From an uncultured Oscillospiraceae bacterium (GTDB lineage: Bacteria > Bacillota > Clostridia > Oscillospirales > Ruminococcaceae): a stretch of DNA of 64,000 nt. Shown piece after piece: positions 4,875 to 41,222 of the stretch; the first letter of the stretch is position 1, and every line of letters begins with the position of its first letter. The stretch covers positions 7,530-71,529 of the forward strand of contig USFO01000001.1 of assembly GCA_900553955.1 (NCBI GenBank), written 5' to 3'. The position numbers and the translations under genes are program-made. The notes beneath the pieces were generated by a model. The model ran no database searches, had not been told where the DNA came from, and saw only the letters and a program-made list of their open reading frames with translations.

Positions 4875-5309
4875 ATGAAAAAGCTTAACCTAAAGCCCAC
4901 CGGCGAAGCCGCCGCCATCCTGTTCGGCTTTTTTGCGGTGCTCACCGCCGCAAGCTGCGCCATGCAGGCGGGTACGGCGGACGCCGTGCGCGTCGTCATT
5001 TACGAATGGGGCGCTTTTCCGCTGCTTTGCGCCATTGTGGGCGGCGTCATCGCCCGCAAAAGCGGCTTTCTGCCGCTGTACGGCCTTTGCTGCGGCGCAA
5101 TTTTCGTTCCATTTATGTATTCGTTTTATTCCGAACAGAATTGGTATGTCATTTTGATGTACTGCATCTTCGGCTATGTGGGAACGGTATTCGGCTGGGT
5201 TCTTTTCCGTCGGGAGGTTCACCGCATCGAGGAGGGTCGCCTGGAGAAAAAGCGCAAGCCCCTTTTGCTGAAGCTTTTCGACCGCCACAACATCGACCAA
5301 TACAAATAG
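4875..5309 (+). CDS. small integral membrane protein, hypothetical
   Basis: Four predicted TM segments. The start abuts the ppiB stop, which suggests translational coupling. Confidence 0.4.
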   Translation: MKKLNLKPTGEAAAILFGFFAVLTAASCAMQAGTADAVRVVIYEWGAFPLLCAIVGGVIARKSGFLPLYGLCCGAIFVPFMYSFYSEQNWYVILMYCIFGYVGTVFGWVLFRREVHRIEEGRLEKKRKPLLLKLFDRHNIDQYK

Positions 5310-5343
5310 TATATTCCGCTTTTGAATATACCGGAGGTACATA

Positions 5344-5817
5344 ATGAAGCTTTGTGTAAAGCAGCAGATATTTTCTTTCCGGGACAGATTTTATGTCACG
5401 GACGAAAACGGAGCGCAGGTCTTTTATATTGAAAGCGAGATTTTCACTTTCTTCAAAAAGTTCCACATCTACGCCATGACCGGCGAAGAGGTGGGCTATA
5501 TCGAGCAGCGGTTCAGCCTGATTTTGCCCCGCCTTGATATTTACATTCACGGCGAATACTCCGCCTCCATTCAAAAGCAGTTTACGCTTTTTTGTCAGGA
5601 ATACTCCGTCGAGGGCGTGAATTGGTATGTTTCCGGCGATTTTTTCAGCCACGAATACGAAATCACCCGCTCCGGCGCGCCTGTTGCCCACATCAGCAAG
5701 GAATGGTTCACCTTCGGGGACTGCTACACCGTCGAGGCGCTGCACCCGCAGGATATGCTCCTCTCCCTTGCGGTTATGGTGAGCATCGACTTCGTTATGG
5801 CAAGCAATAACAACTGA
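5344..5817 (+). CDS. hypothetical protein (possibly LURP-one-related/DUF567-like)
   Basis: RBS ggaggt. 157 aa, soluble. The family assignment comes from length and composition only. Confidence 0.4.
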   Translation: MKLCVKQQIFSFRDRFYVTDENGAQVFYIESEIFTFFKKFHIYAMTGEEVGYIEQRFSLILPRLDIYIHGEYSASIQKQFTLFCQEYSVEGVNWYVSGDFFSHEYEITRSGAPVAHISKEWFTFGDCYTVEALHPQDMLLSLAVMVSIDFVMASNNN

Positions 5818-5878
5818 TACCGAATGCAAAAAATCCGCTTCCCAAAAGGGAAGCGGATTTTTTGTCTTTTTATCGGAA

Positions 5879-6739
5879 TTATTTATGCTCGCCCATATAG
5901 AAAACCGCAACGGTTCCGGGACCCACATGGGAACCGGTAACGGGCTCGTAAACCACCTTGAGCAGCTCTCCGGTGAAGCCTTTTTCACGCAGGCGATCCT
6001 CAAGGCGCTGCGCCCCCTCGGGATTATCCGCATGGGCTATTCCCACGGGCGCGCTTTTATCCAGAACAAGCTCGTCGTACATATTCGCAAGGGTGTCCAT
6101 GGACTTGTTAAAGCCGCGGATTTTTGCGCAGGCAACGATTTTGCCGGTTTCGTCGCCGCGAAGCATGGGTTTTATGTTGAGCATGGTTCCCACCACCGCC
6201 GCCGCTCCGGAAATTCTGCCGCCCTTGCGAAGATAGGCAAGGTCGTCAACGGTGAAGAACTGGCACATATTTTTTCGCAGAAGCTCTATGCTCTTGACGA
6301 CCTTGAGGAAAGGATCGCCGCGCTCAATCATCTTTGCCGCTTCAATTACAAGCATACCCTCGCCGAGGCTTGCGGCGTAGGTATCTATGGTGGCGATTTT
6401 AGCGGATGGGTACTGCTCAAGCAGCTCCTCCGCCGCAAGCTTGGCGGCGTTTGCGGTTCCGCTTATTCCGCCGGACATTCCGACATATATAACAGCGTTG
6501 CCCTTTTCTACCCAAGGCTCAAAGGCTTCGCAGAAGTCGGTCATGCTCACCATGGAGGTCTTGACATCCGCACCGGCGCGCATAGCTTCGTAGAAAGCTC
6601 TGCCGTTAAAGTCGGTGTCGGCGCTGTAAGGAACCTCCTTGCCGTTTACCGTATAGGAAAACGGTACAACTTCTATGTCGTATTCTTTGGTTATGCTCAC
6701 CGGAAGGTTCGCGGATGTATCAGTAAAAAGTTTTATCAT
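5879..6739 (-). CDS. DegV family fatty-acid-binding protein (FakB-like)
   Basis: DegV N-terminus MIKLFTDTSANLP...; about 286 aa. Confidence 0.85.
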   Translation of the reverse strand: MIKLFTDTSANLPVSITKEYDIEVVPFSYTVNGKEVPYSADTDFNGRAFYEAMRAGADVKTSMVSMTDFCEAFEPWVEKGNAVIYVGMSGGISGTANAAKLAAEELLEQYPSAKIATIDTYAASLGEGMLVIEAAKMIERGDPFLKVVKSIELLRKNMCQFFTVDDLAYLRKGGRISGAAAVVGTMLNIKPMLRGDETGKIVACAKIRGFNKSMDTLANMYDELVLDKSAPVGIAHADNPEGAQRLEDRLREKGFTGELLKVVYEPVTGSHVGPGTVAVFYMGEHK

Positions 6740-7626
6740 TATGCTTCCCTCTTTTTTCCCCAGAAGAACAGCGCAACGGTTCCGGGACCGGTGTGGCTGC
6801 CTATGGTTGTGCCTACGTAGTTTATTTCAACTTTTCCGCAAAGCTTGGGGAAACGCTCCTCCACAAGCCTTGCAACCTCCTTTGCGTCCTCAACGCATGC
6901 GGACTGCGAAATATAGCATTTGCCGGAATAATCAAGTCCGTCGTCGGCGTTTTCCTCCATGCGCTTTACGATTTCCTGAATTACCTTGCGCTTCGAGCGG
7001 ATTTTCGCCCTCGGAATGAGTCTGCCCTCGTTGTCCATATTGAGCAGCGGGCAAATTCCGAGGATGGTTCCGATGGCGCCGGCTGTTTTGGAAATTCTGC
7101 CGCCCTTGATGTAGAATTTCAGGTCGGTGGAGAAGAACCAGTGGTGCAGATTGAGCTTGTGCTCCTCCGTCCAGTCCCGCACCTCCTCGATGCTCATGCC
7201 GGAATCCCGCAAATCCGCAAGCTTATCCATAAGCAAACCGTATCCGGAGGACGCACCAAGGGAATCCACAATGTAAATTTTGCGCTCGGGGTAGCGCTCC
7301 CTTGCGATAAGGGCGGCGTTCATCGCGGAATTGTAAGTTCCGGAAATGCCGGTGGAAAGGCTCACATGAAGAATGTCCTTGCCCTCCTCAAGAAATTGGG
7401 AAAAGTACTCGACATATTCCGAAACGTTCACCTGAGAGGTTACGGTGTCGGCGCCCTCATCCATTTTTTTATAAAATTCTTCAAACGGAATGGTCTGACC
7501 CAAATCATCCGGGTGATCCACCCCATCCAATTTATAATGGAAGCAAATATAATGAATATCCCTGTTCTCAAAATGCTCTTTTGAAAGGTCTGCGGTGGAG
7601 CAGCAGCTTAAAACATAGTTTGCCAT
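6739..7626 (-). CDS. DegV family fatty-acid-binding protein (second paralogue)
   Basis: DegV-like sequence directly adjacent to, and overlapping by one nucleotide, the other DegV gene. Confidence 0.8.
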   Translation of the reverse strand: MANYVLSCCSTADLSKEHFENRDIHYICFHYKLDGVDHPDDLGQTIPFEEFYKKMDEGADTVTSQVNVSEYVEYFSQFLEEGKDILHVSLSTGISGTYNSAMNAALIARERYPERKIYIVDSLGASSGYGLLMDKLADLRDSGMSIEEVRDWTEEHKLNLHHWFFSTDLKFYIKGGRISKTAGAIGTILGICPLLNMDNEGRLIPRAKIRSKRKVIQEIVKRMEENADDGLDYSGKCYISQSACVEDAKEVARLVEERFPKLCGKVEINYVGTTIGSHTGPGTVALFFWGKKREA

Positions 7627-7765
7627 TTGTAGTTTTCTCCTTCACAACATTTTCTATGCCTCTATGATACCCCGCCCGCCTGAAAAAGGCAATGAAATCC
7701 GGCTATACTCCTCAATAACAAAAAGTAGAGCCCGAAAAATCGGGCTCTACCGGTAGTAGAATGGC

Positions 7766-8344
7766 TTAATCAAGCGGTTTTTTCACCCTAAACGCAAGGA
7801 ACACTATAAGCTCCGCCGGAACTATGAGCAGCAGTATCTGCCAAGGGTTCCACCGCAGCAGAGCAAGATAGAACATCACGAATATGCTCGCCACAAGGGT
7901 CGAAATTATATAATAGTTCCGTTTTCCCTTTTCCCAAACGGAATTGAACACCAAAAGCGTTATGAGGGAAATGGGAATTGCATATATGAACACCATCCAG
8001 AACAGGTGTCCCAAAATCCAGCCTATGATGAAGATGAAGAACGCCAGCGTCCATATTCCCACCATGGAAATGAGCACTATAATCTCACTGCGGTAGCGGC
8101 GTTTCTGCTTTTGAGAAATCGGCTCCCAGTCGTTATGGGAAGAAAGCAGGTAGTCCACGCTCACGCCGAAAATTTCCGACATATTCTTTAGCACATATGC
8201 GTCCGGCACCGCCTCCGCCCGCTCCCACTTAGAAACACTTTTGTCGGAATAATTAAGAAGCTCCGCAAGCTGCGCCTGGGTCATTCCCGCCTTTGTGCGA
8301 AGACTGATTATATTTGCGGCTGTTATGAATTTAAGATCCTCCAC
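7766..8344 (-). CDS. membrane-anchored XRE-family transcriptional regulator (HTH plus 3-4 TM helices)
   Basis: N-terminal HTH MTQAQLAELLNYSDKSVSKWERAE is followed by hydrophobic helices. Confidence 0.75.
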   Translation of the reverse strand: MEDLKFITAANIISLRTKAGMTQAQLAELLNYSDKSVSKWERAEAVPDAYVLKNMSEIFGVSVDYLLSSHNDWEPISQKQKRRYRSEIIVLISMVGIWTLAFFIFIIGWILGHLFWMVFIYAIPISLITLLVFNSVWEKGKRNYYIISTLVASIFVMFYLALLRWNPWQILLLIVPAELIVFLAFRVKKPLD

Positions 8345-17935: not shown

Positions 17936-19590
17936 CCAAAAAGATTTTTCACTCCATTATTATTGTGGCGGCAAGCGTTCTGCTTGCTAGCCTTGTTATC
18001 ATTTCAAGCTGCTTTTACGAATACTTCGGCAGACTGCAAAGGCAGGAGATGAGGGACGAGCTTTACCTCGCCGCCACAGCGGTTGAACACGGCGGCGATG
18101 ATTACCTGAAAAACATTTCTTCCGGGCATTTTCGTCTTTCGCTTATCGCAAAGGACGGCAATGTTCTTTATGACACCGCCGCCGACGCGGAAAGCCTTGA
18201 AAATCACGGCGGCCGCGAGGAAATAAAGCAGGCACTTGAAAGCGGCGAGGGTGAATCCATCCGCTATTCCTCCACTCTGCTGCAAAAAACAATTTACTGT
18301 GCAAAACGCCTTGATGATGGGCGAGTTCTGCGTATTTCCGTAAGCCGCGCCACGGTGGGTGCCATCGCCATGGGCATGATTTCGCCCATAATTGCCGTGG
18401 GCGTCGGCGCGCTTATCCTCTCCGGCGTTCTGGCTAGCCGCCTTGCAAAACGAATTGTGGAGCCGCTCAACAGGCTTGACCTTGAACACCCGCTGGACAA
18501 TGATTCCTACGAAGAGCTTTCTCCGCTGCTGAGCAGGATAAACAAACAGCGTGCTCAAATTGCGGAGCAGCTTGCGGAGCTTCGCCACCGCACCGACGAA
18601 TTTGAGCAGGTAACCGGAAATATGAAGGAGGGTTTGGTGCTCATCGACACGAACGAGAATGTTTTGAGCATCAACTCCGCTGCGCGGAATATTTTTTCTG
18701 CCGCGGAGGACTGCATAGGAAAGAGCTTCCTCACCGTTGACCGCAGCCGCGACCTCAACGCAGCGATACATTCTGCCTTTGAGCACGGCCACAGTGAAAT
18801 TCATTCCGATAAAAACGGGCGCACCTATCAGTTTGACATAAGCCGCATTGATTCCGACGGCAACGCTTTCGGCGCGGTTATTCTTCTCTTTGACATAACC
18901 GACAGGGAAAACGCCGAAAAGCTTCGGCGCGAATTCACCGCAAATGTTTCCCACGAACTGAAAACCCCGCTCCAAGGGATAATCGGCAGTGCGGAGCTTA
19001 TAGAAAGCGGCATGGTGAAAGCCGCGGATATGCCCCGCTTTGTGGGACATATCCGCGAGGAGGCTCAGCGGCTTGTTAGCCTTGTGAACGACATAATCCG
19101 CCTTTCTCAGCTTGATGAGGGGGATTCCCTGCCCATGGAGCGGGTGGATTTGCTTGCCGTTGCAGAGGAAGCCGCCGCCGACCTCTCCGAAGCCGCAAAA
19201 GCGAGGAATATTTCCCTCCTTGCAGAGGGCGAAAGCGTTTTTGTGTTCGGAATTAAAAGACTTTTGTACGAAGTTATTTACAACTTGGGTGAAAATGCGG
19301 TAAAATATAATGTAGAAAGCGGAAACGTTCTGATATCCGTCGCCAAGGAAGAAAACTCTGCCGTGCTCACGGTAAATGACAGCGGAATAGGAATTGCGCC
19401 GGAGCATCAGAGCCGCATTTTTGAACGCTTCTATCGGGTGGACAAGAGCCATTCCAAGGCTTCCGGTGGAACCGGTCTGGGTCTTTCCATCGTAAAGCAC
19501 GCAGTACAGCGGCACGGCGGCAAAATCGAGCTTGAAAGCGAACCCGGCAAGGGTACGACTATCCGCGTTATTCTGCCCGCCGCAAAATAA
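17932..19590 (+). CDS. sensor histidine kinase (PhoR-like)
   Basis: N-terminal TM, PAS-like segment, H-box FTANVSHELKTPL, and HATPase G-boxes (DSGIGI, GGTGLGLSIV). Confidence 0.85.
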   Translation: MTKKIFHSIIIVAASVLLASLVIISSCFYEYFGRLQRQEMRDELYLAATAVEHGGDDYLKNISSGHFRLSLIAKDGNVLYDTAADAESLENHGGREEIKQALESGEGESIRYSSTLLQKTIYCAKRLDDGRVLRISVSRATVGAIAMGMISPIIAVGVGALILSGVLASRLAKRIVEPLNRLDLEHPLDNDSYEELSPLLSRINKQRAQIAEQLAELRHRTDEFEQVTGNMKEGLVLIDTNENVLSINSAARNIFSAAEDCIGKSFLTVDRSRDLNAAIHSAFEHGHSEIHSDKNGRTYQFDISRIDSDGNAFGAVILLFDITDRENAEKLRREFTANVSHELKTPLQGIIGSAELIESGMVKAADMPRFVGHIREEAQRLVSLVNDIIRLSQLDEGDSLPMERVDLLAVAEEAAADLSEAAKARNISLLAEGESVFVFGIKRLLYEVIYNLGENAVKYNVESGNVLISVAKEENSAVLTVNDSGIGIAPEHQSRIFERFYRVDKSHSKASGGTGLGLSIVKHAVQRHGGKIELESEPGKGTTIRVILPAAK

Positions 19591-19635
19591 TCGGCAAGGG
19601 GCGTTTCCGTATAATAAGCAAAGGAGATACCGCAA

Positions 19636-20421
19636 ATGGATAATCTTAAAAACAAAAAGGGCTTTATCTGCGATATGGACGGCGTTATCTATCACGGAAA
19701 CAAGCTTTTGCCCGGCGTTCGCGAATTTGTGGACTGGCTTTACAACGAGGATAAGCATTTTCTGTTCCTGACAAACTCTTCCGACCGTTCGCCGAAGGAG
19801 CTTCAGCAAAAGCTGTGGCGCATGGGACTTGATGTGGACGAAAGTCATTTCTATACCAGCGCACAGGCCACAGCAAAGTTCATAGCCTCTCAGGCTCCGG
19901 GCTGCAGCGCATTTGTAATCGGCGGTGCGGGACTTATTATGGCGCTTCATGACGAGGGCATCACCATGAACGACGTTGACCCGGACTATGTGGTTATCGG
20001 CGAAGGTAATGCCTACAATTATGAAAGCATTGTGAAAGCGGTGCGCCTTGTGCTTGCGGGCGCGAAGCTTATCGGAACCAACAGCGACATTACCGGTCCT
20101 TCCGACGACGGCATTCTGCCCGCCTGCCGCGCCATGATTGCGCCCATCGAAATGGCGACGGGCAAATCCGCCTACTTCATCGGAAAACCTAACCCTCTTA
20201 TTATGCGCACCGGTCTGCGCATCCTCGGCGTTCACTCCGAAGACGCGGTTATGATAGGCGACCGCATGGACACCGACATTGTCGCCGGAATAGAAACCGG
20301 CCTCGATACGGTTTTGGTACTCTCCGGCGTCACCGACCCGGAGGAAATTAAGCGCTTTCCCTATCGCCCGAAACATGTTCTCTCCGGCGTGGGCGATATT
20401 CCCGCTCTGCCAGACGACTGA
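19636..20421 (+). CDS. HAD-IIA family hydrolase (NagD/YutF-like)
   Basis: DGVIY motif I, LTNSS motif II, GDRMDTDI motif IV. Confidence 0.75.
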   Translation: MDNLKNKKGFICDMDGVIYHGNKLLPGVREFVDWLYNEDKHFLFLTNSSDRSPKELQQKLWRMGLDVDESHFYTSAQATAKFIASQAPGCSAFVIGGAGLIMALHDEGITMNDVDPDYVVIGEGNAYNYESIVKAVRLVLAGAKLIGTNSDITGPSDDGILPACRAMIAPIEMATGKSAYFIGKPNPLIMRTGLRILGVHSEDAVMIGDRMDTDIVAGIETGLDTVLVLSGVTDPEEIKRFPYRPKHVLSGVGDIPALPDD

Positions 20422-20425
20422 TTGC
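20325..20425 (+). repeat. direct repeat copy 1 (native 3' end of the HAD gene)
   Basis: 101 bp, about 93% identical to 20513-20613. Confidence 0.8.
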
Positions 20426-20512
20426 GCTTAAAGTCTGCCACTATTACCTACTGTTTTGTTATGAATTTCAAGCCCACACCCCAAAAGGGGGTGCGGGATT
20501 TGCTCTGTTTTG

Positions 20513-20613
20513 CGGCGTCACCGACCCGGAGGAAATTAAGCGTTTCCCCTATCGCCCGAAGCATGTTCTCTCCGGCGTGGGCGATATTCCCGCGCTGCCG
20601 GATGATTGATTGC
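20513..20613 (+). repeat. direct repeat copy 2 (diverged orphan copy of the HAD 3' end, synonymous changes only)
   Basis: In frame it encodes the identical ...GVTDPEEIKRFPYRPKHVLSGVGDIPALPDD* despite about 7 nucleotide changes. Confidence 0.8.
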
Positions 20614-20619
20614 ATTAAC

Positions 20620-20660
20620 AGCCCCGCACAGATTTTGCGCAGGGCTGTTTTTTTCCGCAA
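20620..20660 (+). terminator. probable intrinsic terminator after the repeat
   Basis: Imperfect stem cagccccgcaca/tgcgcagggctg followed by ttttttt. Confidence 0.45.
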
Positions 20661-20790
20661 GCTTCGACAAATCACTGTGAGCTGCCGCAAAATATTTTAC
20701 AATTAGTCATATTATGTCTTAATTCTACAATTCGTATATCATTAAAGTACAAAAAAGCACCCGGCGGGTGCTTTTTTCTTCGCATAATAA

Positions 20791-21162
20791 TTATTCGGCT
20801 TCTTCAATCTTTGCTTCGGGAGCATTTTTGCGGACGCTCTCTACACCGTTTTTGCAGGATGCTTTTGCCTTGTATCCCTCGGAGGAGAGGATGATTTCGC
20901 CGTTGCGGGCTTTCAGGCGGAAGCGGAATTCGCCGGCTTTGTCGGTGTAAATTTCAAATTTCGGGTTGGTTTCAGTCTCAAAGTTCTCAACGGTCTGATC
21001 TTCAAGCTTCGCGGCTTCGGCGTTTTTGCGGACGCTTTCGATTCCGTTAAGGCAGCCGTCCTTGGTGCTGTAGTTCTGGGAGCTTCCGATGACTTCGCCG
21101 TTGGAGGCGACAAGATTGAAATGAACACTCTTTTCAGTTTCTTTTACTACGAATTTTCCCAT
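20791..21162 (-). CDS. YegP/DUF1508 tandem-domain protein
   Basis: Two repeats of about 55 aa (...FRLKARNGEIILSSEGYKAKASCKNGVESVRKNA / ...FNLVASNGEVIGSSQNYSTKDGCLNGIESVRKNA). Confidence 0.7.
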   Translation of the reverse strand: MGKFVVKETEKSVHFNLVASNGEVIGSSQNYSTKDGCLNGIESVRKNAEAAKLEDQTVENFETETNPKFEIYTDKAGEFRFRLKARNGEIILSSEGYKAKASCKNGVESVRKNAPEAKIEEAE

Positions 21163-25891: not shown

Positions 25892-28800
25892 TTATCCGCG
25901 TTTCTTTTTGCCAAGAATTACTGCCGCAGCAGCAAGAACGGCAACAGCTGCAAAGCCGTTCGGTGCGGGTGCGCCGGTTTCGGGGTTGTTTTCGCCCTTG
26001 TTCTTGTCGCCGCCGATGACGATGTGAATGGTCTGGCTGTTATCGGACAGGCGCGGAATTTCCATTCTCTGCTCAAGGTTGCAAACCTTGCAGTAGCGAA
26101 CCTTTTCGCCCGCTTCGGTTCCGGTGGGCTGCTTTACTATAATCCATTCGCCGAACTGATGAGGTACGACGGGGCTTGCTTTACCCTTTTCGATAAGCTC
26201 GCCGCAGGACTTGCAGTAGGTATCGCCGGTGTAGCCGCTCTCGGTGCAGGTTGCGGCTTTGGCGTTTTTAAGCTCGGTTTCGCCTACATGGTTCTTGGGG
26301 TCCTTGGGGGTTACAATTGTTGTGACTTCGTTCTTTGCGTCCTTATCGGAGTAAAGCTTCTTGCAAACAGTGCATTCCCAATACTCGATGCTGCCCTCCG
26401 CAATGCAGGTGGCTGCTTTTGCGGCATGGTGAACGAGCTTGTGACCGAGAGCCGGAGTATCGACGGTCTTAATCTGCTTTTCAAAGCCGTAGATATTGGC
26501 GCCGAATTCTGCGGTGAACTCAACCTTGCCCTTTTCGGTGCAGGTCGCCTCTTTGAGAGTCTTGGAGGTGACTCTTGCATCTTCGGTGTGAACATGGCTG
26601 TTGTCGTTCTCACAGACTACCTTTCCGGTGAGGGTGCTGTTGTTTGCGCTCCACTCGTAGGTGGGCTTGCCCCACTTATGGCCGATTGCCGGGATTTCAA
26701 CGGTCTTTTCGGCCGCTGCGAACTTGGTAAAGGTTGCAACGAACTTGCCCTCGCCTTTTACTTCGCAGGTTGCCGCTTTAACAACGCTGTAAACGGTGTT
26801 TACGGTTTCGGTTTCAGTGTGGCTCGGATCGCGTTTGCAGGTATGCTTTGCGGTAGCTTCGCTGTTATTGCTGTTCCATGTGTACTCGGTTTCGCCCCAG
26901 TCATGACCGAGAACCGCATTTTCAACTACGGCAGTCTGAGTGGTGAAGCCATATTCATTCTCGCCAAACTCTGCGGTGTAGGTAACCTTGCCCGGAGTGG
27001 TGCAGGTTGCGTTCTCGGTTACGGCGGTGGAGTTCACCGTTTCAGTGTGAACATGGTTTTTGTCGTTCTCGCAGACTACCTTTCCGGTGAGAGTGCTGTG
27101 ATCTGCGCTCCACTCATAGGTGGGCTTGCCCCACTTATGACCGGTCGCCGGGATTTCAACAGTCTTTTCGGTCGCCGCGAACTTGGTGAAGGTTGCCACG
27201 AACTTGCCCTCGCCCTTTACTTCGCAGGTAGCTTCTTTAACTACGCTGTAAACAGCGTCAACGGTTTCGGTTTCGGTCTCGTTCGGGTGCTGTGCGCAGG
27301 AATGAGTTGCGGTTACAGTATTGTTGTCAGCGTTCCAAGTATAGGTGGTTTCGCCCCATTCGTGAGCCTGCCATGCAAGGATGGGATAGCCGCTGTTGAT
27401 GTTCTGCTTATCCATGCGGAAGCTTGCGCCAAGAAGGTCAACCATAGCGGAAGCTTTGAGTTCGGATTCGGTCTTTTCGGTGCCGAAGCCGGTGTTAGCT
27501 GCAAGGCTGTGGCAGCCTTTGAGGTAATAGCAGTTTACAACTGCAGATTCCTTAGTGGTGTCGGAAATTGCGCCGCTTCTGGCTGCGCCGGTTACTTTGC
27601 CGACGTTGTAGCAGTTGGTTATCTGCGGACCTTTGCTCTGCTGAGAGCAAGAGTTAGAGATACCGGAAGCAATTCCGTTCTGGGAAGTTGCAGTAATATT
27701 GCCAACATTGTAGCAATCGGTAATGGTTACGCTTTCAAGCAGCGGGTTCGCAAGGATGCCTGCCACTCTGGAGAAGCCGGTTACTTCAACTGCGGTGAAA
27801 CACTGGCTGATTTTGGTATTCTCATAAGAGAACGCTACCAATCCAGCGGTATATTCTTTGCCGCCGGTAGTTGTTACGCTACCCTTTACGCCAAGTTTGG
27901 TGATAGTTGCAGCTCTTACGGTTCCAAAGAGTGCTTGTCTGCCGTTTGCATTGTTAATATAAAGGTCGCTGATAACATGACCGTTTCCGTCGAATTCGCC
28001 GCTAAACTCCTGATAGTCGTCGCCGATAGGAGTCCAGTTGTAACCGCCGAGGGAAATATCGTTCATCAGCTTTACTTTGCTGATTGCGGTGCCTTTGTTT
28101 ACCTCCGCAGCAATCCATGCAAGCTCTGCGCCGGTTCTTACTTCGTAAACGCCGTCAGCATTGGGGGTTACTTCTGTAGTGGTCTTGCCGTCCCAGATGG
28201 AGGCATCGCCCTTAGTAAGGTTTACAGTAACGGTTTTGCCTGCTGCATCCGCATCAGTAAGAGTGAACTTGCCGTGAGCAGCGACATATCCGTTTGCAAC
28301 TACATCATAGCTGTAATCGCCGATGTTTGCGTTATAAGTTCCGTCTTCGTTCGCTGCAACAACAGCGCCGGTGCCGTCATAAAGGGTTACGACTGCGTTT
28401 GCAGGAGTGCAAACGAATGTTACCTTGATGTCAACAATGGATTTTACGGGAATTGTGATCTCCGGGAGCACGTCTCTTACGTGGTTAGTGGAAACAGCGC
28501 TGAAGTTTGCGCCAACGCCGTTATCAGTAAGAATTCTGTGTCCGCCGAGAGGAGAATCGGTGCCCATAACGTTGAATTTTACATTACCGCCGGAAAGGAC
28601 AACATCGCCTGCACTCTTAGCGGTAAAGATGTATCTGTTGGTGCTGATAAAGTCATACTGACCGCCGCTTGCACTCTTAAATTCAGCGTTATCGGAAAGA
28701 GTATAAGAAACTTTGTGTCCCTGACCAAATCCGGGGTTGTAAATACCGGAGAATTTGGAGATAGGCTGATAAAGTCCATGGAATACAAGTTTGATATCGT

Positions 28801-31201
28801 CGCCCACATAGGCTACATCGCCGCCGCGGGTTACGTTTTCAACGGTGTAAGTCACTTTTGCGGCTCTTACTACCTGATATACGGTCTTGCCGTTCGCAGT
28901 GAACTTCAGAATGTTGTTACCGGTGGCAAGTCCTGCTGCGGTAAAACTGCCGTCTGCATTTTTGCCGACGTTTTTCCAACTTCTGCCCTTATCGGTAGAG
29001 AACTGAACAGTGGGTTCTGCGTCGTCAAGAGTTGCGTTGAAGGAGAAGGCTGCCGCATTGGTAAGGGTATAAACCGTGTCGTACTCGGTATCCCAAATAT
29101 CTTTTGAGCCAACAGCTTTCATGGTAAGTCCGCTGTTATCGCCGCCTACATTGATAACAATAAGGCTGGTACGCTGAGGATCAGTTGCGCCATAAGTGCC
29201 AGAATAGCTGGTGCTGCCGCCGATTTCGATAGCGTCATATCTGACTTCGAGGATGGTAAGACCTTCGGAAACACCTTCAATATCCATCCAGTTGGTCTGT
29301 TCGCCAACGCCGGCGTTACCGGTGCAGCGGTTGGTCGCAGGGGTCATCTTGATATGCTCGCCGCCGGAAATTACGGTGTAGTGGAAATCCGGCTCGATCA
29401 TAATGTTCGCGGTATCACTGTTGATAATCTGCCATGCGCCGCGGTATGCACGGAGTCTGAAGGTTTCACCAACGCCGAGGGAAAGGTTGTTCTGTCCGTT
29501 GACGTTTACCATGGTGCTGCCTTCCATACGCCCTTTAAGGTAGGTGCTGGTAACATTATTTTCTGTGCTTTCGGGGTCTTCATTTTCCGCAAACGTTACG
29601 GTAATGTTCTTATTTCTGCCGCTATCAAAATAGCCGGCTCTGGTTATTTTGCCTTCCATGGAAACGCGGTAGGTAAGGTTGCTGCTGACTGCACGAAGTG
29701 TATGTGTAACAGTTCCATCCTCGTTTTCGGTAGTGGAAGAAACGGGCATTTCTTCAACATTGAAATTCTTAATCTGGCTGAAGAATTTTACGGTTGCGCC
29801 CTTGGGTGCAGTTACAGTGTAATTAACAAGAGAGTTAAGAATGAAGGTCTTCTCTATTGTTTTGCTGGAACCTTCGCCGAAAGTGTTGTTGATGGAAAGT
29901 GCAACGCCATAAGTTTTGGAAAGCTCCTCGTTAAGAGTGATTTTCCAGTTATAAAGCAGTGCATTGCCGTGTGCGAAAAGAAGAGTAGGAGTCATGACGA
30001 AATCGTCGTAACCGTCGTTGTAGATGTACTGAGCACCGGTAACAACGCTCTTCATTTTGCCGGGCATAATGTCGATGGAGTAATCGCCGACTTTCTGCAC
30101 CTTGGGGTTCTCGGTGTAGTAGTTGACTCTTACAAGGGTCATCTTCTGCTCGCTGTGAATCGGCTTGCCGTCCGCGCCGATTTCTACGCTGATAGGTGCT
30201 TCAAAGGTCATTCCGCCGAGGTCGTGGTTGTCCTCGGTATCAACCGCGCGGTAGGAATACATACCGGAAGGAACGGTGATTTCGTAAACATGGTAATTGC
30301 CGCTTACGCCTTTATCAACAACCTTGTCGGCTGCAAGGGCGTTCTGTGCGTCCTCGTCGCTGTAGAAGGTTACGTTGACAGTAGAAGGAGCAACGTTCAC
30401 GGTGATGGTGTATTGTTCATCCCCGGTTGCCGGGAAAGTATAGCCGCAGTGAACGCATTTGCCGTCGCTGCCTCTGGTGCAGGCTTCCTCGCCGGTGCTG
30501 ATAACATAGTCGCACTTTGCACATTTTACGGTTTTGGTGTGATTGCCGTCGTTTTTGGAAACATAGGTGGTATGTTCCTCGTCTCCGGCGCAGGCTTCCT
30601 CGCTGGTGCTGATAACTTCGCCGCACTTTTTGCAGGTAACGGTTACGGTGTGGTTACCGTCGCCCTTTGCGGTGTAGGAAGTTTCGGTTTCGGTGCCGAC
30701 GTGGTCGCACTCCTTGGCAGGGAAAACAGTAACAACAGTTTCTTTTACCTCGCCTTCAGGAATGTCTACATCAGCGGTTGCACCGCCAAAAATCTTTGTT
30801 CCGAACTTTGCTTCTGTTTTTGCTGCTATATCTTCTTTTGCAGTAAATACAACAGTCGCAATAGTTTCGCCCGCTGCAACAGCGCCCTTCATGTTCATAT
30901 TGGTAAGGCCAATCTGAAGATAGCTGCCGTTTTCATCGGTCATGGTGTCTTTTCTTACTGTAATGTCGCTGTTATTAGAAGCAACAGACTTTACAGTAAA
31001 CAAATCTGCGTTGAAGTAAAGCCTTGTTTCAAGAGCGATAAGCCCTGAATACGCTTCATCAACAGTGACATCAATTGTAACATCCTCGCCAGCCTTCACG
31101 GTGGAAGGAGTGACGGTGGGAGTTGCATTTATTGCAAAGGCAGAAATTCCGGTGCTGCACACCATAATAACTGCAAGCAATAAAGAAATCAGTTTTTTCA
31201 T
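25892..31201 (-). CDS. giant (1769 aa) cell-wall-anchored surface protein with a cohesin-like N-terminal module, GLUG-motif region, Cys-rich tandem repeats and an NPETG sorting signal
   Basis: RBS aaggagg. Signal peptide MKKLISLLLAVIMVCSTGISAFA. Cohesin-like beta-sandwich pattern at residues ~25-170. GLUG-like repeats (RQALFG, TAGLVAF, VAGILAN). C-terminus NPETG + hydrophobic span + KKKRG. Confidence 0.8.
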   Translation of the reverse strand: MKKLISLLLAVIMVCSTGISAFAINATPTVTPSTVKAGEDVTIDVTVDEAYSGLIALETRLYFNADLFTVKSVASNNSDITVRKDTMTDENGSYLQIGLTNMNMKGAVAAGETIATVVFTAKEDIAAKTEAKFGTKIFGGATADVDIPEGEVKETVVTVFPAKECDHVGTETETSYTAKGDGNHTVTVTCKKCGEVISTSEEACAGDEEHTTYVSKNDGNHTKTVKCAKCDYVISTGEEACTRGSDGKCVHCGYTFPATGDEQYTITVNVAPSTVNVTFYSDEDAQNALAADKVVDKGVSGNYHVYEITVPSGMYSYRAVDTEDNHDLGGMTFEAPISVEIGADGKPIHSEQKMTLVRVNYYTENPKVQKVGDYSIDIMPGKMKSVVTGAQYIYNDGYDDFVMTPTLLFAHGNALLYNWKITLNEELSKTYGVALSINNTFGEGSSKTIEKTFILNSLVNYTVTAPKGATVKFFSQIKNFNVEEMPVSSTTENEDGTVTHTLRAVSSNLTYRVSMEGKITRAGYFDSGRNKNITVTFAENEDPESTENNVTSTYLKGRMEGSTMVNVNGQNNLSLGVGETFRLRAYRGAWQIINSDTANIMIEPDFHYTVISGGEHIKMTPATNRCTGNAGVGEQTNWMDIEGVSEGLTILEVRYDAIEIGGSTSYSGTYGATDPQRTSLIVINVGGDNSGLTMKAVGSKDIWDTEYDTVYTLTNAAAFSFNATLDDAEPTVQFSTDKGRSWKNVGKNADGSFTAAGLATGNNILKFTANGKTVYQVVRAAKVTYTVENVTRGGDVAYVGDDIKLVFHGLYQPISKFSGIYNPGFGQGHKVSYTLSDNAEFKSASGGQYDFISTNRYIFTAKSAGDVVLSGGNVKFNVMGTDSPLGGHRILTDNGVGANFSAVSTNHVRDVLPEITIPVKSIVDIKVTFVCTPANAVVTLYDGTGAVVAANEDGTYNANIGDYSYDVVANGYVAAHGKFTLTDADAAGKTVTVNLTKGDASIWDGKTTTEVTPNADGVYEVRTGAELAWIAAEVNKGTAISKVKLMNDISLGGYNWTPIGDDYQEFSGEFDGNGHVISDLYINNANGRQALFGTVRAATITKLGVKGSVTTTGGKEYTAGLVAFSYENTKISQCFTAVEVTGFSRVAGILANPLLESVTITDCYNVGNITATSQNGIASGISNSCSQQSKGPQITNCYNVGKVTGAARSGAISDTTKESAVVNCYYLKGCHSLAANTGFGTEKTESELKASAMVDLLGASFRMDKQNINSGYPILAWQAHEWGETTYTWNADNNTVTATHSCAQHPNETETETVDAVYSVVKEATCEVKGEGKFVATFTKFAATEKTVEIPATGHKWGKPTYEWSADHSTLTGKVVCENDKNHVHTETVNSTAVTENATCTTPGKVTYTAEFGENEYGFTTQTAVVENAVLGHDWGETEYTWNSNNSEATAKHTCKRDPSHTETETVNTVYSVVKAATCEVKGEGKFVATFTKFAAAEKTVEIPAIGHKWGKPTYEWSANNSTLTGKVVCENDNSHVHTEDARVTSKTLKEATCTEKGKVEFTAEFGANIYGFEKQIKTVDTPALGHKLVHHAAKAATCIAEGSIEYWECTVCKKLYSDKDAKNEVTTIVTPKDPKNHVGETELKNAKAATCTESGYTGDTYCKSCGELIEKGKASPVVPHQFGEWIIVKQPTGTEAGEKVRYCKVCNLEQRMEIPRLSDNSQTIHIVIGGDKNKGENNPETGAPAPNGFAAVAVLAAAAVILGKKKRG
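26435..27364 (-). repeat. two tandem ~470-bp intragenic repeats (~90% nt identity) encoding ~155-aa Cys-containing modules
   Basis: DNA around 26620-26880 and 27040-27300 is near-identical. The protein repeats run HEWGETTYTWN...AVLG and HDWGETEYTWN...ALGHK. Confidence 0.7.
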
Positions 31202-32782: not shown

Positions 32783-33988
32783 TTATTCGTTGATTTCGAT
32801 AACAACACCGGAACCGACGGTTCTGCCGCCTTCACGGATAGCGAAGCGGAGACCTTTTTCGATTGCGATAGGCTCGATAAGTTCAACATCCATCTCGACG
32901 TTATCGCCGGGCATGCACATCTCGGTGCCTTCGGGAAGGGTGATAACACCGGTAACGTCAGTGGTTCTGAAGAAGAACTGAGGACGATAGTTGTTGAAGA
33001 AAGGAGTATGACGGCCACCTTCGTCTTTCTTGAGGACGTAAACCTGTCCGCGGAAAGCTTTGTGAGGATGGATGGAGCCGGGTTTGGAAAGAACCTGACC
33101 ACGTTTTACTTCAGTTCTCTGGATGGAACGGAGAAGAGCACCGATGTTGTCGCCTGCCTCGCCATAGTCGAGGATCTTGTGGAACATTTCTACGCCGGTA
33201 ACAACGGTTTTCTTTTTCTCTTCGCTAAGGCCAACGATTTCAACTTCGTCGCCGGTTTTAACCTGACCACGCTCTACACGGCCGGTAACAACAGTGCCAC
33301 GACCGGTGATGGTGAAGATGTCTTCGATAGGCATAAGGAAAGGAAGGTCAGCTTTACGCTCAGGAGTAGGAATGTAAGAGTCAACAGCGTCAAGAAGAGC
33401 CTGGATGGGCTTGTAGCACTCTGCATCAGGATCGTTGCTGGTGTCTTCGAGGCAAGCAAGAGCGGAGCCTGCGATAACAGGGGTTTCGTCGCCGGGATAT
33501 CCGTACTCGGTAAGAAGCTCACGAACTTCCATCTCTACGAGCTCGAGCATTTCGGTATCGCCGTTGAGCTGGTCAACTTTGTTAAGGAATACTACGATGT
33601 AGGGAACACCTACCTGACGGGAAAGAAGGATGTGCTCACGGGTCTGAGGCATAGGACCATCAGCAGCGGAAACTACGAGGATGGTACCATCCATCTGTGC
33701 AGCACCGGTGATCATGTTCTTGATGTAGTCGGCATGTCCGGGGCAGTCAACGTGAGCATAGTGACGGTTTGCAGTCTCATACTCAACGTGTGCGGTGTTA
33801 ATCGTGATACCACGAGCTTTTTCTTCAGGAGCTTTGTCGATTGCGTCATATGCCTCGTACTGTGCCCAACCTTTAAGGCTGAGGTACTTGGTGATGGCAG
33901 CAGTCAGAGTGGTTTTACCATGGTCGATATGGCCGATGGTGCCGATATTAACATGGGGTTTGGTTCTCTCAAAATGTTGTTTTGCCAT
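32783..33988 (-). CDS. tuf: elongation factor Tu
   Basis: [32 protein letters not shown]... Confidence 0.97.
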
Positions 33989-34126
33989 TTAAGATTGTCC
34001 TCCTTACAGTTAAATTCTTTCTTTTTTTATTTCTGGGCTATTACATACTATTTTATACTAAAACAAAAATTTTGCAAGCTGAAAAGCGGCATTATTTTTG
34101 CTTTTGACAAAATATTTTTCCATTGC

Positions 34127-36196
34127 TTATCTATTTTTAATAATCTCTTCAGCAATGGACTTCGGAACTTCAACATAATGGCTGGGTTCCATAACATACT
34201 GTCCGCGTCCTTGGGTTTTGGAACGAAGGTCGCTTGCATAACCGAACATTTCGGAAAGCGGAACATATGCTTTGATTTCTTTTGCGCCGTAGTTATCATC
34301 CATACCGCGGATCTGGCCACGTCTGGAAGAAAGGTCACCCATAACATCGCCCATGTATTCCTCGGGGAATGTTACGGTTACGTTCATGATCGGCTCAAGC
34401 AGAACGGGATCTGCTTTTCTCATAGCTTCCTTGAATGCCATAGAACCGGCAATGGTAAATGCCATTTCGGAAGAGTCGACCTCGTGGTAAGAACCGTCGT
34501 AAAGAGTAACCTTTACGTCAACAACGGGATAACCCGCGAGGACACCGGCATTAAGAGCACCCTGGATACCTTTGTTAACAGGCTCAATGTACTCTTTCGG
34601 GATTGCGCCACCAACAACTGCGTTGATGAACTCGTAGCCCTTGCCGCTTTCGTTCGGTTCGACCTTAATTTTAACATGACCGTACTGACCTTTACCGCCG
34701 GACTGACGGGCATATTTGGTTTCCTGGTCAACAGCCTTTCTGATAGTCTCTTTATAAGCAACCTGAGGTTTACCGACGTTTGCTTCTACCTTAAATTCAC
34801 GAAGAAGACGGTCAACGATGATTTCGAGGTGAAGCTCACCCATACCAGCGATGATGGTCTGTCCGGTTTCTTTATCGGTATAAGCTTTGAAGGTAGGATC
34901 TTCTTCAGCAAGCTTTGCAAGAGCAATAGCCATTTTCTCCTGGCCTGCCTTGGTCTTCGGTTCGATTGCAAGGTCGATAACAGGCTCCGGGAACTCCATT
35001 TTTTCAAGCTCGATAGGAGCTTTGGGGTCGCAAAGGGTATCGCCGGTGGTAGTGTACTTAAGACCTACCGCCGCTGCGATATCGCCGCAGTAGCAGATAT
35101 CAAGATCTTTTCTGTGGTTTGCGTGCATCTGAAGGATGCGGCCTATTCTTTCGTTCTTATCCTTGGTGGAGTTGAGAACGGTGGAACCGGCTTCAACAAT
35201 ACCGGAATAAACTCTGAAGAAGCAGAGTTTTCCGACGAACGGGTCGGCAGCAATCTTGAATGCAAGCGCTGCAAGAGGCTCGTCATCACCGGGCTTGCGT
35301 TCGACTTCTTCTCCGGTGTGGAAATCAACGCCTCTTACAGGCGGGATGTCAAGAGGAGAAGGCATATAGTCAACAATAGCATCGAGCAGCTTTTGAACGC
35401 CTTTGTTGCGGTAAGAAGTGCCGCAGCATACGGGAACGAAATCGTTGTCGATGGTGCCTTTTCTGATGGCGGCTTTGAGTTCGCCAATGGTGAGCTCTTC
35501 GCCGTCAAGGTATTTCATCATAAGCTCTTCGTCAACTTCCGCAGCGGTTTCAACAAGCTTTTCGCGATATTCTTCGCAAAGATCCTTCATATTGTCCGGA
35601 ACGTCAGTAACTTCAATGTTCGTGCCAAGATCGTCAAGATAATAATAAGCTTTCATTTCAAGAAGGTCAACAAGACCTTTGAAATCGGATTCAGCTCCGA
35701 TAGGAAGCTGAATTACCAGCGGAACAGCTTTAAGTCTGGTCTTGACCATATCTACGACATGGAAGAAGTTCGCACCCATGATATCCATCTTGTTGACGTA
35801 AATCATGCGCGGTACTTTATATTTGTTTGCCTGACGCCATACGGTTTCAGACTGGGGTTCTACGCCGCCTTTTGCGCAGAGAACGGTTACAGAACCGTCA
35901 AGCACGCGGAGAGATCTTTCAACCTCAACAGTAAAGTCTACGTGTCCGGGAGTATCGATGATGTTGATACGGTGGCCGTTCCAATATGCGGTGGTTGCGG
36001 CGGAGGTGATGGTAATACCTCTTTCCTGCTCCTGAACCATCCAGTCCATGGTGGCGCTGCCATCGTGAGTTTCACCGATTTTGTAGTTAACACCGGTATA
36101 GTAAAGTATGCGTTCGGTTGTGGTAGTCTTTCCTGCGTCGATGTGAGCCATGATACCGATATTTCGGGTCATCTCAAGTGAAACATCTCTTGCCAT
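34127..36196 (-). CDS. fusA: elongation factor G
   Basis: [35 protein letters not shown]... Confidence 0.97.
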
Positions 36197-37297: not shown

Positions 37298-37544
37298 AGG
37301 TTTCCTCCTTTCTTCAGTTTTTACCGTTTGGGCATGGTTGTCCCCAAAGCAGGAACTACCAATTTCAAATTATAGCATTCTTTCTGCCCGGTGTCAACAA
37401 AATTTTATGTAGGTATTTCACAAAAATGAGGCTCCGGATTAGTGCAAAATGCCTAAACAAAGCGCATATTTTATCGACTCATGTTCATACAGCCGATGAA
37501 ATATCGCAACATTGCAAAAAATTTTATGCAAAAATGCAAGGAGG

Positions 37545-37585
37545 CATAAAATACCGGCTTTTCGCTTCCGAAAAGCCGGTATTAC
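37545..37585 (-). terminator. intrinsic terminator downstream of rpoC
   Basis: Perfect stem ataccggcttttcg / cgaaaagccggtat. Confidence 0.6.
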
Positions 37586-37610
37586 TTTAAATAAACGAAT
37601 AATAAAGATA

Positions 37611-40600: not shown

Positions 40601-41204
40601 GCTTCTGTCCGGAAGCGTTTTCAAGCTCCTCATGAAGCTCCTGAGAGAGCTTTTCAAGGTCAATATCCTTGAGAAGAAGCTGGATCGCCTCCGCACCCAT
40701 GCCGGCCTGGAAGTCCTCGCCGTATTTTTCGCGCATCTCTCTGTATTCCTTTTCGGAAAGGAGCTGTTTGTTCTCCAAAGAGGTGCTGCCCTTGTCGGTT
40801 ACAATGTAGCTTGCGAAGTAGAGAACCTTTTCCAGCAGTCTGGGGCTCATATCAAGGATAAGTCCCATTCTGGAGGGGGTTCCTTTGAAGTACCAGATAT
40901 GGGATACCGGCGCCGCAAGCTTGATGTGACCCATACGCTCGCGTCTTACCTTTGCTCTGGTGACTTCAACGCCGCAGCGCTCGCAGATCTTGCCCTTGAA
41001 GCGCAGGCGTTTGTATTTTCCGCAGTAGCACTCCCAGTCCTTGGTCGGTCCAAAGATTCTTTCGCAGAAAAGGCCGTCGCGCTCGGGCTTGAGTGTTCTG
41101 TAGTTTATCGTTTCGGGTTTCTTTACTTCACCGTAGGACCATTCAAGGATCTTTTCCGGTGAAGCAAGGCCGATTTTGATAGAATCAAAGGTGTTGAATT
41201 CCAT
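37611..41204 (-). CDS. rpoC: DNA-directed RNA polymerase subunit beta'
   Basis: Zn-finger [23 protein letters not shown] and catalytic [12 protein letters not shown]. Confidence 0.97.
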
Positions 41205-41222
41205 TATTTGCAGCCCTCCCCA

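What the first reader, a model, noticed from the sequence alone, without database searches (positions are those of the whole stretch)
20325..20613. Diverged, synonymously substituted duplicate of the HAD-hydrolase 3' end, 88 bp downstream of the gene
The last 101 bp of the HAD gene (20325-20425) recur at 20513-20613 with about 7 substitutions. All of them are synonymous in the HAD reading frame: both copies encode ...GVTDPEEIKRFPYRPKHVLSGVGDIPALPDD*. An 88-bp spacer containing the hairpin cccacacccc aaaa gggggtgcggg separates the copies. The pattern fits an integrative element that once inserted into the gene's 3' end carrying its own replacement 3' end, leaving attL/attR-like copies of different origin. 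It also fits allelic replacement by recombination from a related strain. Either way it marks a recombination hotspot or a decayed integration site.
Basis: seen in the sequence. Interest (0 to 1): 0.6.

Follow-up and report, generated by a model that had tools for sequence, protein, structure and literature searches.

The report
Variable tandem repeat of gene end
The duplicated end of the HAD-hydrolase gene is real, but it is one allele of a 189-bp tandem repeat (gene end plus terminator hairpin) that varies from one to at least five copies between strains of this gut bacterium, not the scar of an integrated phage or ICE.

Summary
Window 20325-20425 recurs at 20513-20613 with 94/101 identity. 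All 7 differences are synonymous third-codon positions. The integrative-element reading is not supported.

In about 24 independent contigs of the same uncultured Oscillospiraceae species, the locus is a head-to-tail array [R(101)-S(86-90)]n-R-T. It has 1, 2, 3 and at least 4-5 copies, and the S|R junction is the same throughout. S is the native sequence downstream of HAD in a sister lineage that has one R copy.

No strain has an element between R copies. A 10.1-kb serine-recombinase IME does occur here, but it sits in the loop of terminator T, after the last R. R copies form 32 haplotypes among 46 copies, with all four gametes at every adjacent pair of common sites, so there is no fixed crossover point.

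Copies within one array differ as much as alleles between strains. Diversity in the gene's R segment is about 3-fold that of the rest of the gene.

Best reading: one founding non-homologous join placed two allelic gene ends side by side. Unequal homologous recombination and gene conversion then shuffled the species' standing synonymous polymorphism. This is an ordinary kind of feature (a VNTR and recombination hotspot) and a clear example of it.

The parts
19636..20421 (+). HAD-IIA (NagD-like) hydrolase gene, 261 aa. Its last 96 coding nt plus the stop codon form the first repeat copy.
   Evidence: ORF. Pfam Hydrolase_6/Hydrolase_like on the identical protein. A cluster member carries the NCBI name 'HAD-IIA family hydrolase [Oscillospiraceae bacterium]'.
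20325..20425 (+). R1: the in-gene repeat copy (32 codons including the stop, plus TTGC).
20426..20512 (+). S: 87-nt spacer with a GC-rich hairpin (core 20473-20497) followed by a T-rich tail. It is the native HAD 3' flank of sister lineage B. Its terminator function is inferred.
   Evidence: Fold. Collinear with L122 10787-10876. Occurs once in the window.
20513..20613 (+). R2: the downstream, untranslated repeat copy. It has no canonical in-frame start codon.
20614..20654 (+). T: intrinsic terminator-like hairpin (stem 20617-20649) followed by a U-run. In other strains its loop (about 20633-20636) is the insertion point of a 10.1-kb IME with a large serine recombinase.
   Evidence: Fold z = -2.9. 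Junctions in L136, L090, L092 and L094.
20655..20790 (.). Shared intergenic segment ('T42+') including the A6-stem-U6 bidirectional terminator (20751-20777) of the convergent DUF1508 gene. It is the right-hand boundary of the variable region in strains carrying the GmrSD island.
20791..21162 (-). DUF1508 (YegP-like) gene, the conserved right flank of the hotspot.

Best explanation
The finding is one allele (n = 1 extra unit) of a hypervariable minisatellite with a period of about 189 bp. The unit is the last 101 bp of the HAD gene (R) plus an 86-90-bp spacer (S) that carries a terminator-like hairpin. The array is [R-S]n-R, followed by a second terminator T.

Shown:
- Copy number ranges from 1 to at least 5 among strains of one species.
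- Every S|R junction is the same.
- S is the native HAD 3' flank in a sister lineage that has a single R.
- R copies are intensely mosaic.
- Copies within one array are as different as alleles from different strains.
- The in-gene R segment has about 3-fold the diversity of the rest of the gene.

Inferred:
- A single founding non-homologous join put a 'gene end + S' allele next to a 'gene end + T' allele. This could be homology-facilitated illegitimate recombination, or a microhomology duplication followed by allelic replacement of the distal flank.
- Unequal homologous recombination, within genomes and with incoming DNA from other strains, has since expanded and contracted the array. Gene conversion exchanges patches between the expressed copy and the silent copies.
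- The differences are synonymous because they are the species' standing polymorphism, filtered by selection whenever a copy is the expressed gene end. The downstream copies themselves are not translated.
- No selected function of the array is implied. At most it provides stacked terminators between two convergent genes.
For: - Copy number and junctions: 1 copy in L084, L087, L104, L107. 2 copies in the window, L002, L085, L097, L110, L136. 3 copies in L001, L093, L111. At least 3-5 copies with scaffold gaps in L086, L088, L089, L091, L095, L096, L102, L103, L106, L109. All 29 resolved S|R junctions are ...TGCTCTGTTTTG|CGGCGTCACC or its diverged homologue ...GCTTTATTTTT|CGGCGTC.
- Origin of S: window 19636-20511 aligns collinearly at 89.7% with L122 HAD + S. 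In L122, S is followed by GmrSD, not by R.
- Sister lineage A and other species have no duplicate.
- Polymorphism: among 46 complete copies, the in-gene copies carry 16 synonymous and 0 nonsynonymous variants. The downstream copies carry 14 synonymous variants plus one natural coding allele (PDE*) and two singleton nonsynonymous changes. There are no indels in R.
- Divergence: mean within-array difference is 5.4; mean between-strain difference is 5.25.
- Mosaicism: 32 haplotypes among 46 copies, with all four gametes between every adjacent pair of common sites.
- Diversity: pi is 0.051 in R versus 0.016 in the rest of HAD. At third positions it is 0.151 versus 0.041.
- No conserved frame or start codon links the copies. 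Spacer length is 86-90 nt.
- Diverged flank duplicates also occur on the DUF1508 side of the GmrSD island. The same kind of event therefore recurs at this locus.
Against: - The founding event is not observed, and no clear microhomology explains the S|R junction.
- Four gametes between sites 3 nt apart could partly reflect recurrent mutation rather than recombination.
- R copies show no indels and few nonsynonymous changes even in the most divergent lineages (L086, about 9% divergent). This needs fast turnover or gene conversion, which is inferred and not measured.
- Copy numbers in scaffolds with N gaps are only lower bounds.
- Most of the comparison contigs come from metagenome assemblies. 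Only a few loci (L092, L114) come from NCBI genome records, and I did not check whether those are isolates or MAGs.
Confidence: 0.72

Rival explanations
1. Decayed integrative element ('microCIME'). An ICE, IME or phage specific for the HAD 3' end once integrated, bringing its own copy of the gene end. It then lost everything except 87 bp, and tandem accretion produced the multi-copy arrays. R copies would be att sites and S would be the fused element ends.
For: The unit size of 188 bp falls in the 130-220 bp range reported for gene-less microCIMEs, which sit in tandem at the 3' ends of rpmG, rpsI and fda in Streptococcus salivarius (PMC7563491). The copies are of different allelic origin. The locus does attract mobile DNA: an IME and a GmrSD island.
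Against: - S continues collinearly from HAD in a sister lineage that has no second R.
- No integrase-bearing element lies between R copies in any of about 24 conspecific contigs or the 20 sister-lineage places shown.
- R and S are absent from IMG/VR, INPHARED and PLSDB.
- The mosaic of variants has no fixed switch point.
- The only recombinase-bearing element at the locus uses terminator T, not R.
Confidence: 0.1
2. Selected cis-acting function. The repeated gene end plus hairpin is maintained because it acts as RNA or DNA, for example stacked terminators insulating the convergent HAD and DUF1508 genes, an mRNA-stability element or a small RNA. Nucleotide-level selection would then keep R intact.
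For: S and T both fold into GC-rich hairpins followed by T-rich tracts. R copies carry no indels, although the 5' part of S has diverged strongly between the S-a and S-b types.
Against: - Single-copy strains are common (4 of about 24), and sister lineages lack the array altogether.
- There is no Rfam match.
- The fold of S is no better than shuffled sequence (z = +0.25).
- Variation in R follows codon position, not any RNA pairing.
Confidence: 0.06
3. Serial 3'-end displacement. Each unit is an independent import of a new gene end that pushed the previous one downstream, as proposed for Rhs, CdiA and T6SS orphan arrays.
For: Orphan 3' fragments lie downstream of a full-length gene. Homology-facilitated illegitimate recombination is proposed for such arrays (PMC5361080). 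Units of different S types (S-a, S-b) coexist in one array.
Against: Independent illegitimate joins would give different junctions. All 29 junctions are the same. The orphans encode the same peptide and carry no cargo.
Confidence: 0.08
4. Assembly artefact from co-assembled strains.
For: Most comparison data are metagenome assemblies, and several scaffolds break inside the array (N gaps).
Against: The S-to-R junction k-mers can only come from real reads. Fully resolved 2- and 3-copy arrays recur in different studies and assemblers. The copies are distinguishable by substitutions.
Confidence: 0.02

Closest known systems
Bacterial minisatellites / VNTRs with long units (for example MIRU-VNTR loci of Mycobacterium tuberculosis; comparison from my own knowledge)
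   Same: Head-to-tail units of tens to hundreds of bp in an intergenic position abutting a gene end. Copy number differs between strains of one species. Change is presumed to occur by unequal recombination or slippage.
   Different: Here the unit contains the last 32 codons (including the stop) of a housekeeping gene plus a terminator hairpin. The copies within an array are as diverged as alleles from different strains instead of being homogenised. It is a single locus, not a dispersed family.
Orphan 3'-end arrays from 'C-terminal displacement' (Rhs, CdiA, T6SS effector-immunity arrays), proposed to arise by homology-facilitated illegitimate recombination (PMC5361080)
   Same: Silent copies of a gene's 3' end are stacked downstream of the expressed gene. 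They are brought together by recombination between lineages and can exchange with the expressed end.
   Different: The orphans here encode the same peptide, with synonymous changes only. They carry no toxin or immunity cargo, and all share one junction. That points to one founding event plus amplification, not serial displacement.
attL/attR of elements integrating into gene 3' ends, and their gene-less remnants (microCIMEs, 130-220 bp; PMC7563491)
   Same: Direct repeats of a gene's 3' end separated by a short gene-less spacer, sometimes in tandem.
   Different: The spacer is native flank DNA, not element ends. No cognate integrase element was found. There is no fixed crossover point. The real IME at the locus targets the neighbouring terminator hairpin.
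Transformation-triggered tandem duplication by alternative pairing of repeats (Streptococcus pneumoniae merodiploids; PMC3784515)
   Same: Unequal crossing-over is driven by incoming DNA that pairs out of register with a repeated segment. This is a plausible way for donor units to be added to an array.
   Different: Those duplications are 100-900 kb between IS-derived repeats and are unstable. Here the units are 189 bp and the polymorphism is long-lived.

Membership tests
Integrative-element att pair / microCIME | The DNA between the repeats is element-derived, not native flank. | tested here: not met
   S is collinear with the sequence directly downstream of HAD in sister lineage B (L122), which has a single R.
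Integrative-element att pair / microCIME | A cognate element with an integrase occupies the same repeats in some genome, or carries the repeat as attP. | tested here: not met
   None was found in about 24 conspecific contigs or the 20 sister-lineage places shown. There were no hits in IMG/VR, INPHARED or PLSDB. Absence holds only for the collections searched.
Integrative-element att pair / microCIME | Exchange occurs at one fixed crossover point within the repeat. | tested here: not met
   All four gametes occur at every adjacent pair of common polymorphic sites. There are 32 haplotypes among 46 copies.
VNTR / minisatellite | Head-to-tail units with a constant junction. | tested here: met
   29 of 29 resolved S|R junctions are homologous. 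Unit length is 187-191 bp.
VNTR / minisatellite | Copy number is polymorphic among strains of one species. | tested here: met
   1, 2, 3 and at least 4-5 copies occur in contigs that are 96-98.5% identical in their flanks.
VNTR / minisatellite | Copy-number change occurs by unequal homologous recombination or slippage. | not testable with these tools
   Inferred from the mosaic copies and the shared junction. It needs recA-mutant or time-series experiments.
Rhs/CdiA-type C-terminal displacement array | Orphan 3' fragments homologous to the expressed gene's 3' region lie downstream of it. | tested here: met
Rhs/CdiA-type C-terminal displacement array | The orphans encode divergent C-terminal domains with cognate immunity genes. 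| tested here: not met
   19 of 25 downstream copies encode the identical peptide. There are no ORFs in S.
Diversity-generating retroelement (TR/VR pair) | Mismatches lie at template adenines, with a reverse transcriptase nearby. | tested here: not met
   The mismatches are C/T, T/C, A/G, T/G, A/G, C/T and C/T, and all are synonymous. None of the Pfam-annotated genes within 10 kb in conspecific loci carries a reverse-transcriptase domain.
Known RNA family (Rfam 15) | A match reaching the family's gathering score. | tested here: not met
   Only two sub-threshold hits, both outside R-S.

The most novel reading that the evidence does not exclude
The array may work as a bank of silent gene-end cassettes that continually exchanges with the expressed 3' end. 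That resembles silent-cassette gene conversion in antigenic variation, except that the exchange here is neutral at the protein level. It would explain why synonymous diversity at the HAD 3' end is 3.7 times that of the rest of the gene. It would also make this a natural system for measuring gene-conversion tract lengths and unequal-recombination rates in an uncultured gut anaerobe.

A more speculative variant starts from the fact that the unit ends exactly after the T-rich tail of the S hairpin, the presumed mRNA 3' end. The founding copy could then have come from a reverse-transcribed mRNA 3' end.
Probability: 0.12. Interest if true: 0.5.

Novelty: new member of a known kind. Interest (0 to 1): 0.3.

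Why it matters
The finding is mainly a caution and a marker.

- A diverged, purely synonymous duplicate of a gene end looks like an att scar. Here it is a population-level tandem repeat.
- The HAD-DUF1508 spacer of this uncultured human-gut Oscillospiraceae species is a hotspot. It holds a VNTR, a GmrSD defence island and a serine-recombinase IME that targets a terminator hairpin.
- The repeat could serve as a strain-typing marker and as a natural read-out of unequal recombination and gene conversion in gut metagenomes.
- It does not reveal a new mechanism.

Tried and rejected
- DGR: rejected. The mismatches are not at adenines, all are synonymous, and there is no reverse transcriptase.
- Dispersed REP-like repeat: rejected. 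The hairpin occurs once in 64 kb. Elsewhere it occurs only at the right edge of the GmrSD island.
- Translation of downstream copies by read-through, frameshift or their own start codon: rejected. Spacer lengths are 86-90 nt, so the frame is not conserved, and start codons are inconsistent.
- Known RNA family: none.
- The simple terminator scan found nothing because the stems are imperfect. Folding was used instead. TRF found nothing because the window holds only 1.5 units.
- A homologue of S downstream of HAD in more distant species: only weak, non-significant collinear words in L016. Not used.
- Microhomology at the founding S|R junction: examined by eye. No convincing pattern.
The far junction was reached through the window's PstC protein instead.

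Full report
**1. Observation**

Window 20325-20425 (R1) and 20513-20613 (R2) are a 101-nt direct repeat with 94/101 identity.
- R1 is the last 94 coding nt of the HAD-IIA hydrolase gene (19636-20421), its stop codon, and TTGC.
- All 7 differences are third-codon positions and synonymous. Both copies read GVTDPEEIKRFPYRPKHVLSGVGDIPALPDD*.
- The spacer S is 87 nt (20426-20512) and holds a GC-rich hairpin at 20473-20497.
- After R2 comes a different hairpin followed by a U-run (T, 20614-20654; z = -2.9). Then comes the A6-stem-U6 terminator of the convergent DUF1508 gene (20791-21162, minus strand).
- The context is core chromosome: pstSCAB-phoU-phoBR, HAD, DUF1508, an amino-acid permease. The window has no tRNA genes, and no recombinase gene was noted among the ORFs near the locus.

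**2. The same locus in other strains**

I ran exact-protein look-ups of the window's HAD, DUF1508, PhoB, PstS and PstC and one DNA scan of metagenome contigs. These gave about 24 independent contigs whose flanks are 96-98.5% identical to the window. A named cluster member comes from an Oscillospiraceae bacterium MAG.

The locus in these contigs is a head-to-tail array [R-S]n-R-T.

| Copies of R | Contigs |
|---|---|
| 1 | L084, L087, L104, L107 |
| 2 | window, L002, L085, L097, L110, L136 |
| 3 | L001, L093, L111 |
| at least 3-5 (some with 100-N scaffold gaps inside the array) | L086, L088, L089, L091, L095, L096, L102, L103, L106, L109 |

- Spacers are 86-90 nt.
- All 29 resolved S|R junctions are ...TGCTCTGTTTTG|CGGCGTCACC or a diverged homologue...GCTTTATTTTT|CGGCGTC.
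- One junction shared by all units, including those of the most divergent lineages (L085, L086), means one founding join followed by amplification. It does not fit repeated independent insertions.

**3. Where S comes from**

- Other species (HAD at most 87% identical) have no downstream duplicate.
- Sister lineage A (HAD 84% nt identical) has a single copy and a 117-nt spacer with one shared terminator.
- Sister lineage B (about 90% nt identical) has a single copy followed directly by S with its hairpin. S is then followed by a GmrSD-family gene on the opposite strand, and later by DUF1508. Window 19636-20511 aligns collinearly with it at 89.7%.

S is therefore native HAD 3' flank DNA in a related lineage. 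T is the flank of the GmrSD-less allele. The window's arrangement juxtaposes 'gene end + S' with 'gene end + T'.

S is not a dispersed repeat. It occurs once in the 64-kb window.

**4. Mobile DNA at the locus**

*IME.* Three loci from at least two strains (L090/L136 and L094 are identical in sequence; L092 differs) carry a 10.1-kb integrative mobilizable element.
- It encodes a MobA/MobL relaxase and a 545-aa large serine recombinase.
- Both junctions were recovered for the L090/L136 contig...R-S-R-ATTAACAGCCCCGCACAGATTT | element | TTTGCGCGGGGCTGTTTTTTT....
- The element therefore sits in the loop of the T hairpin, downstream of an intact 2-copy array. It is not between R copies.

*GmrSD island.* Four contigs (L102, L106, L110, L111) carry a GmrSD island.
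- It begins inside the last R, which then ends ...PDE* followed by its own terminator.
- It ends at position 42 of T.
- The island carries a diverged duplicate of the DUF1508-side flank.

Insertions that leave diverged flank duplicates therefore recur at this hotspot.

R and S are absent from IMG/VR contigs, INPHARED phages and PLSDB plasmids.

**5. Why the differences are synonymous**

I analysed 46 complete R copies, 21 in-gene and 25 downstream.

| Measure | Result |
|---|---|
| Variants in in-gene copies | 16 synonymous, 0 nonsynonymous |
| Variants in downstream copies | 14 synonymous, one natural coding allele (PDE*, 4 copies), two singleton nonsynonymous changes |
| Indels in R | none |
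| Mean pairwise difference | 5.4 within arrays, 5.25 between in-gene copies of different strains |
| Haplotypes | 32 among 46 copies |
| Four-gamete test | all four gametes at every adjacent pair of common sites, even 3 nt apart |
| Nucleotide diversity (pi) | 0.051 in the in-gene R segment, 0.016 in the rest of HAD |
| Third-position diversity | 0.151 in R, 0.041 in the rest of HAD |

- The common variants occur at similar frequency in both classes of copy.
- Downstream copies have no conserved frame or start codon.

The simplest account is as follows. The variants are standing synonymous polymorphism of the gene end. Part of it comes from diverged lineages. It is stored in the silent copies and continually shuffled with the expressed copy by unequal crossing-over and gene conversion. 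Selection acts only when a copy is the expressed end.

**6. Mechanism, shown versus inferred**

*Shown:*
- array structure and copy-number polymorphism
- a single shared junction
- the native origin of S
- mosaicism of the R copies
- elevated diversity in the R segment
- no element between R copies
- the IME in the T loop

*Inferred:*
- The founding join was made by illegitimate recombination between alleles. This could be HFIR, as proposed for orphan arrays (PMC5361080), or a microhomology duplication followed by replacement of the distal flank.
- Later change occurred by unequal recombination, possibly stimulated by incoming DNA (PMC3784515).

I found no convincing microhomology at the junction.

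**7. Comparison with known systems**

- It behaves as a long-unit VNTR.
- It resembles Rhs/CdiA/T6SS 'C-terminal displacement' arrays in stacking silent gene ends. It lacks divergent cargo and independent junctions.
- In size it resembles microCIMEs (130-220 bp, PMC7563491). It fails the att-site tests: native spacer, no cognate element, no fixed crossover.
- It is not a DGR and not a known RNA family.

**8. Verdict**

- The integrative-element interpretation is not supported.
- The 'recombination between related strains / hotspot' alternative is supported and extended.
- Novelty: a new member of a known kind.
- Interest is modest (0.3). The value lies in a clean example, a possible strain-typing marker, and a caution against reading synonymous gene-end duplicates as att scars.

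Noticed in passing
window 20614-20654 (empty site); L136 15664-15700; L090 10520-10590; L092; L094: A 10.1-kb integrative mobilizable element is inserted in the loop of the HAD-distal terminator hairpin T in at least two strains. It carries HTH proteins, Lactamase_B_2, RNase_T, DUF3847, a MobA/MobL relaxase and a 545-aa large serine recombinase with DUF4368. The crossover lies within the T-run of the loop. The recombinase family is very abundant in gut metagenomes (7981 hits at E <= 1e-50).
   Followed up: partly
L102, L106, L110, L111 (same species); L122-L131 (sister lineage): A GmrSD-family (PF03235, type IV restriction-like) gene is variably present between HAD and DUF1508. In the window's species it enters through the last R copy, which then ends PDE* with its own terminator. 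The island carries a diverged duplicate of the DUF1508-side flank. It is bracketed by two copies of the S-type hairpin plus tail.
   Followed up: partly
S hairpins, e.g. L093 R2-R3 spacer, L091, L088, L136 15520-15550: The loop of the S hairpin is inverted between copies (CCCACACCCCCC-AAA-GGGGGTGTGGG versus CCCACACCCCC-TTTG-GGGGGTGTGGG). This is the signature of loop inversion by template switching within a palindrome. The window's own copy has an A.C mismatch in the stem that other copies lack.
   Followed up: no
window 19834-19932 (HAD codons 67-99): There is a second peak of nucleotide diversity inside HAD (pi 0.052, against about 0.01 in neighbouring segments) among 21 strains. This suggests an imported recombination tract unrelated to the array.
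   Followed up: no
window 18004-20376 (-), 26024-29107 (+), 33008-36181 (+), 37512-41162 (+) vs 37611-41204 (-), 41208-43787 (+) vs 41223-44963 (-): Very long ORFs (790 to about 1200 aa) run antisense to long ORFs on the other strand across the window, at only about 50% G+C. They are probably a codon-usage effect (avoidance of TTA, CTA and TCA), not genes. I did not examine this.
   Followed up: no
L103/L133 about 5200-8000; L105, L109 (upstream of the pst operon): Some strains carry a tyrosine integrase (PF00589) plus a YonV_C-domain gene between the large surface protein and the zinc-ribbon genes upstream of pstS. This is another variable spot in the same neighbourhood.
   Followed up: no
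L141 13128-16109: In one contig the conserved order breaks inside phoB and continues with Metallophos and ParA-like genes. This is either a rearrangement or insertion, or a chimeric assembly.
   Followed up: no
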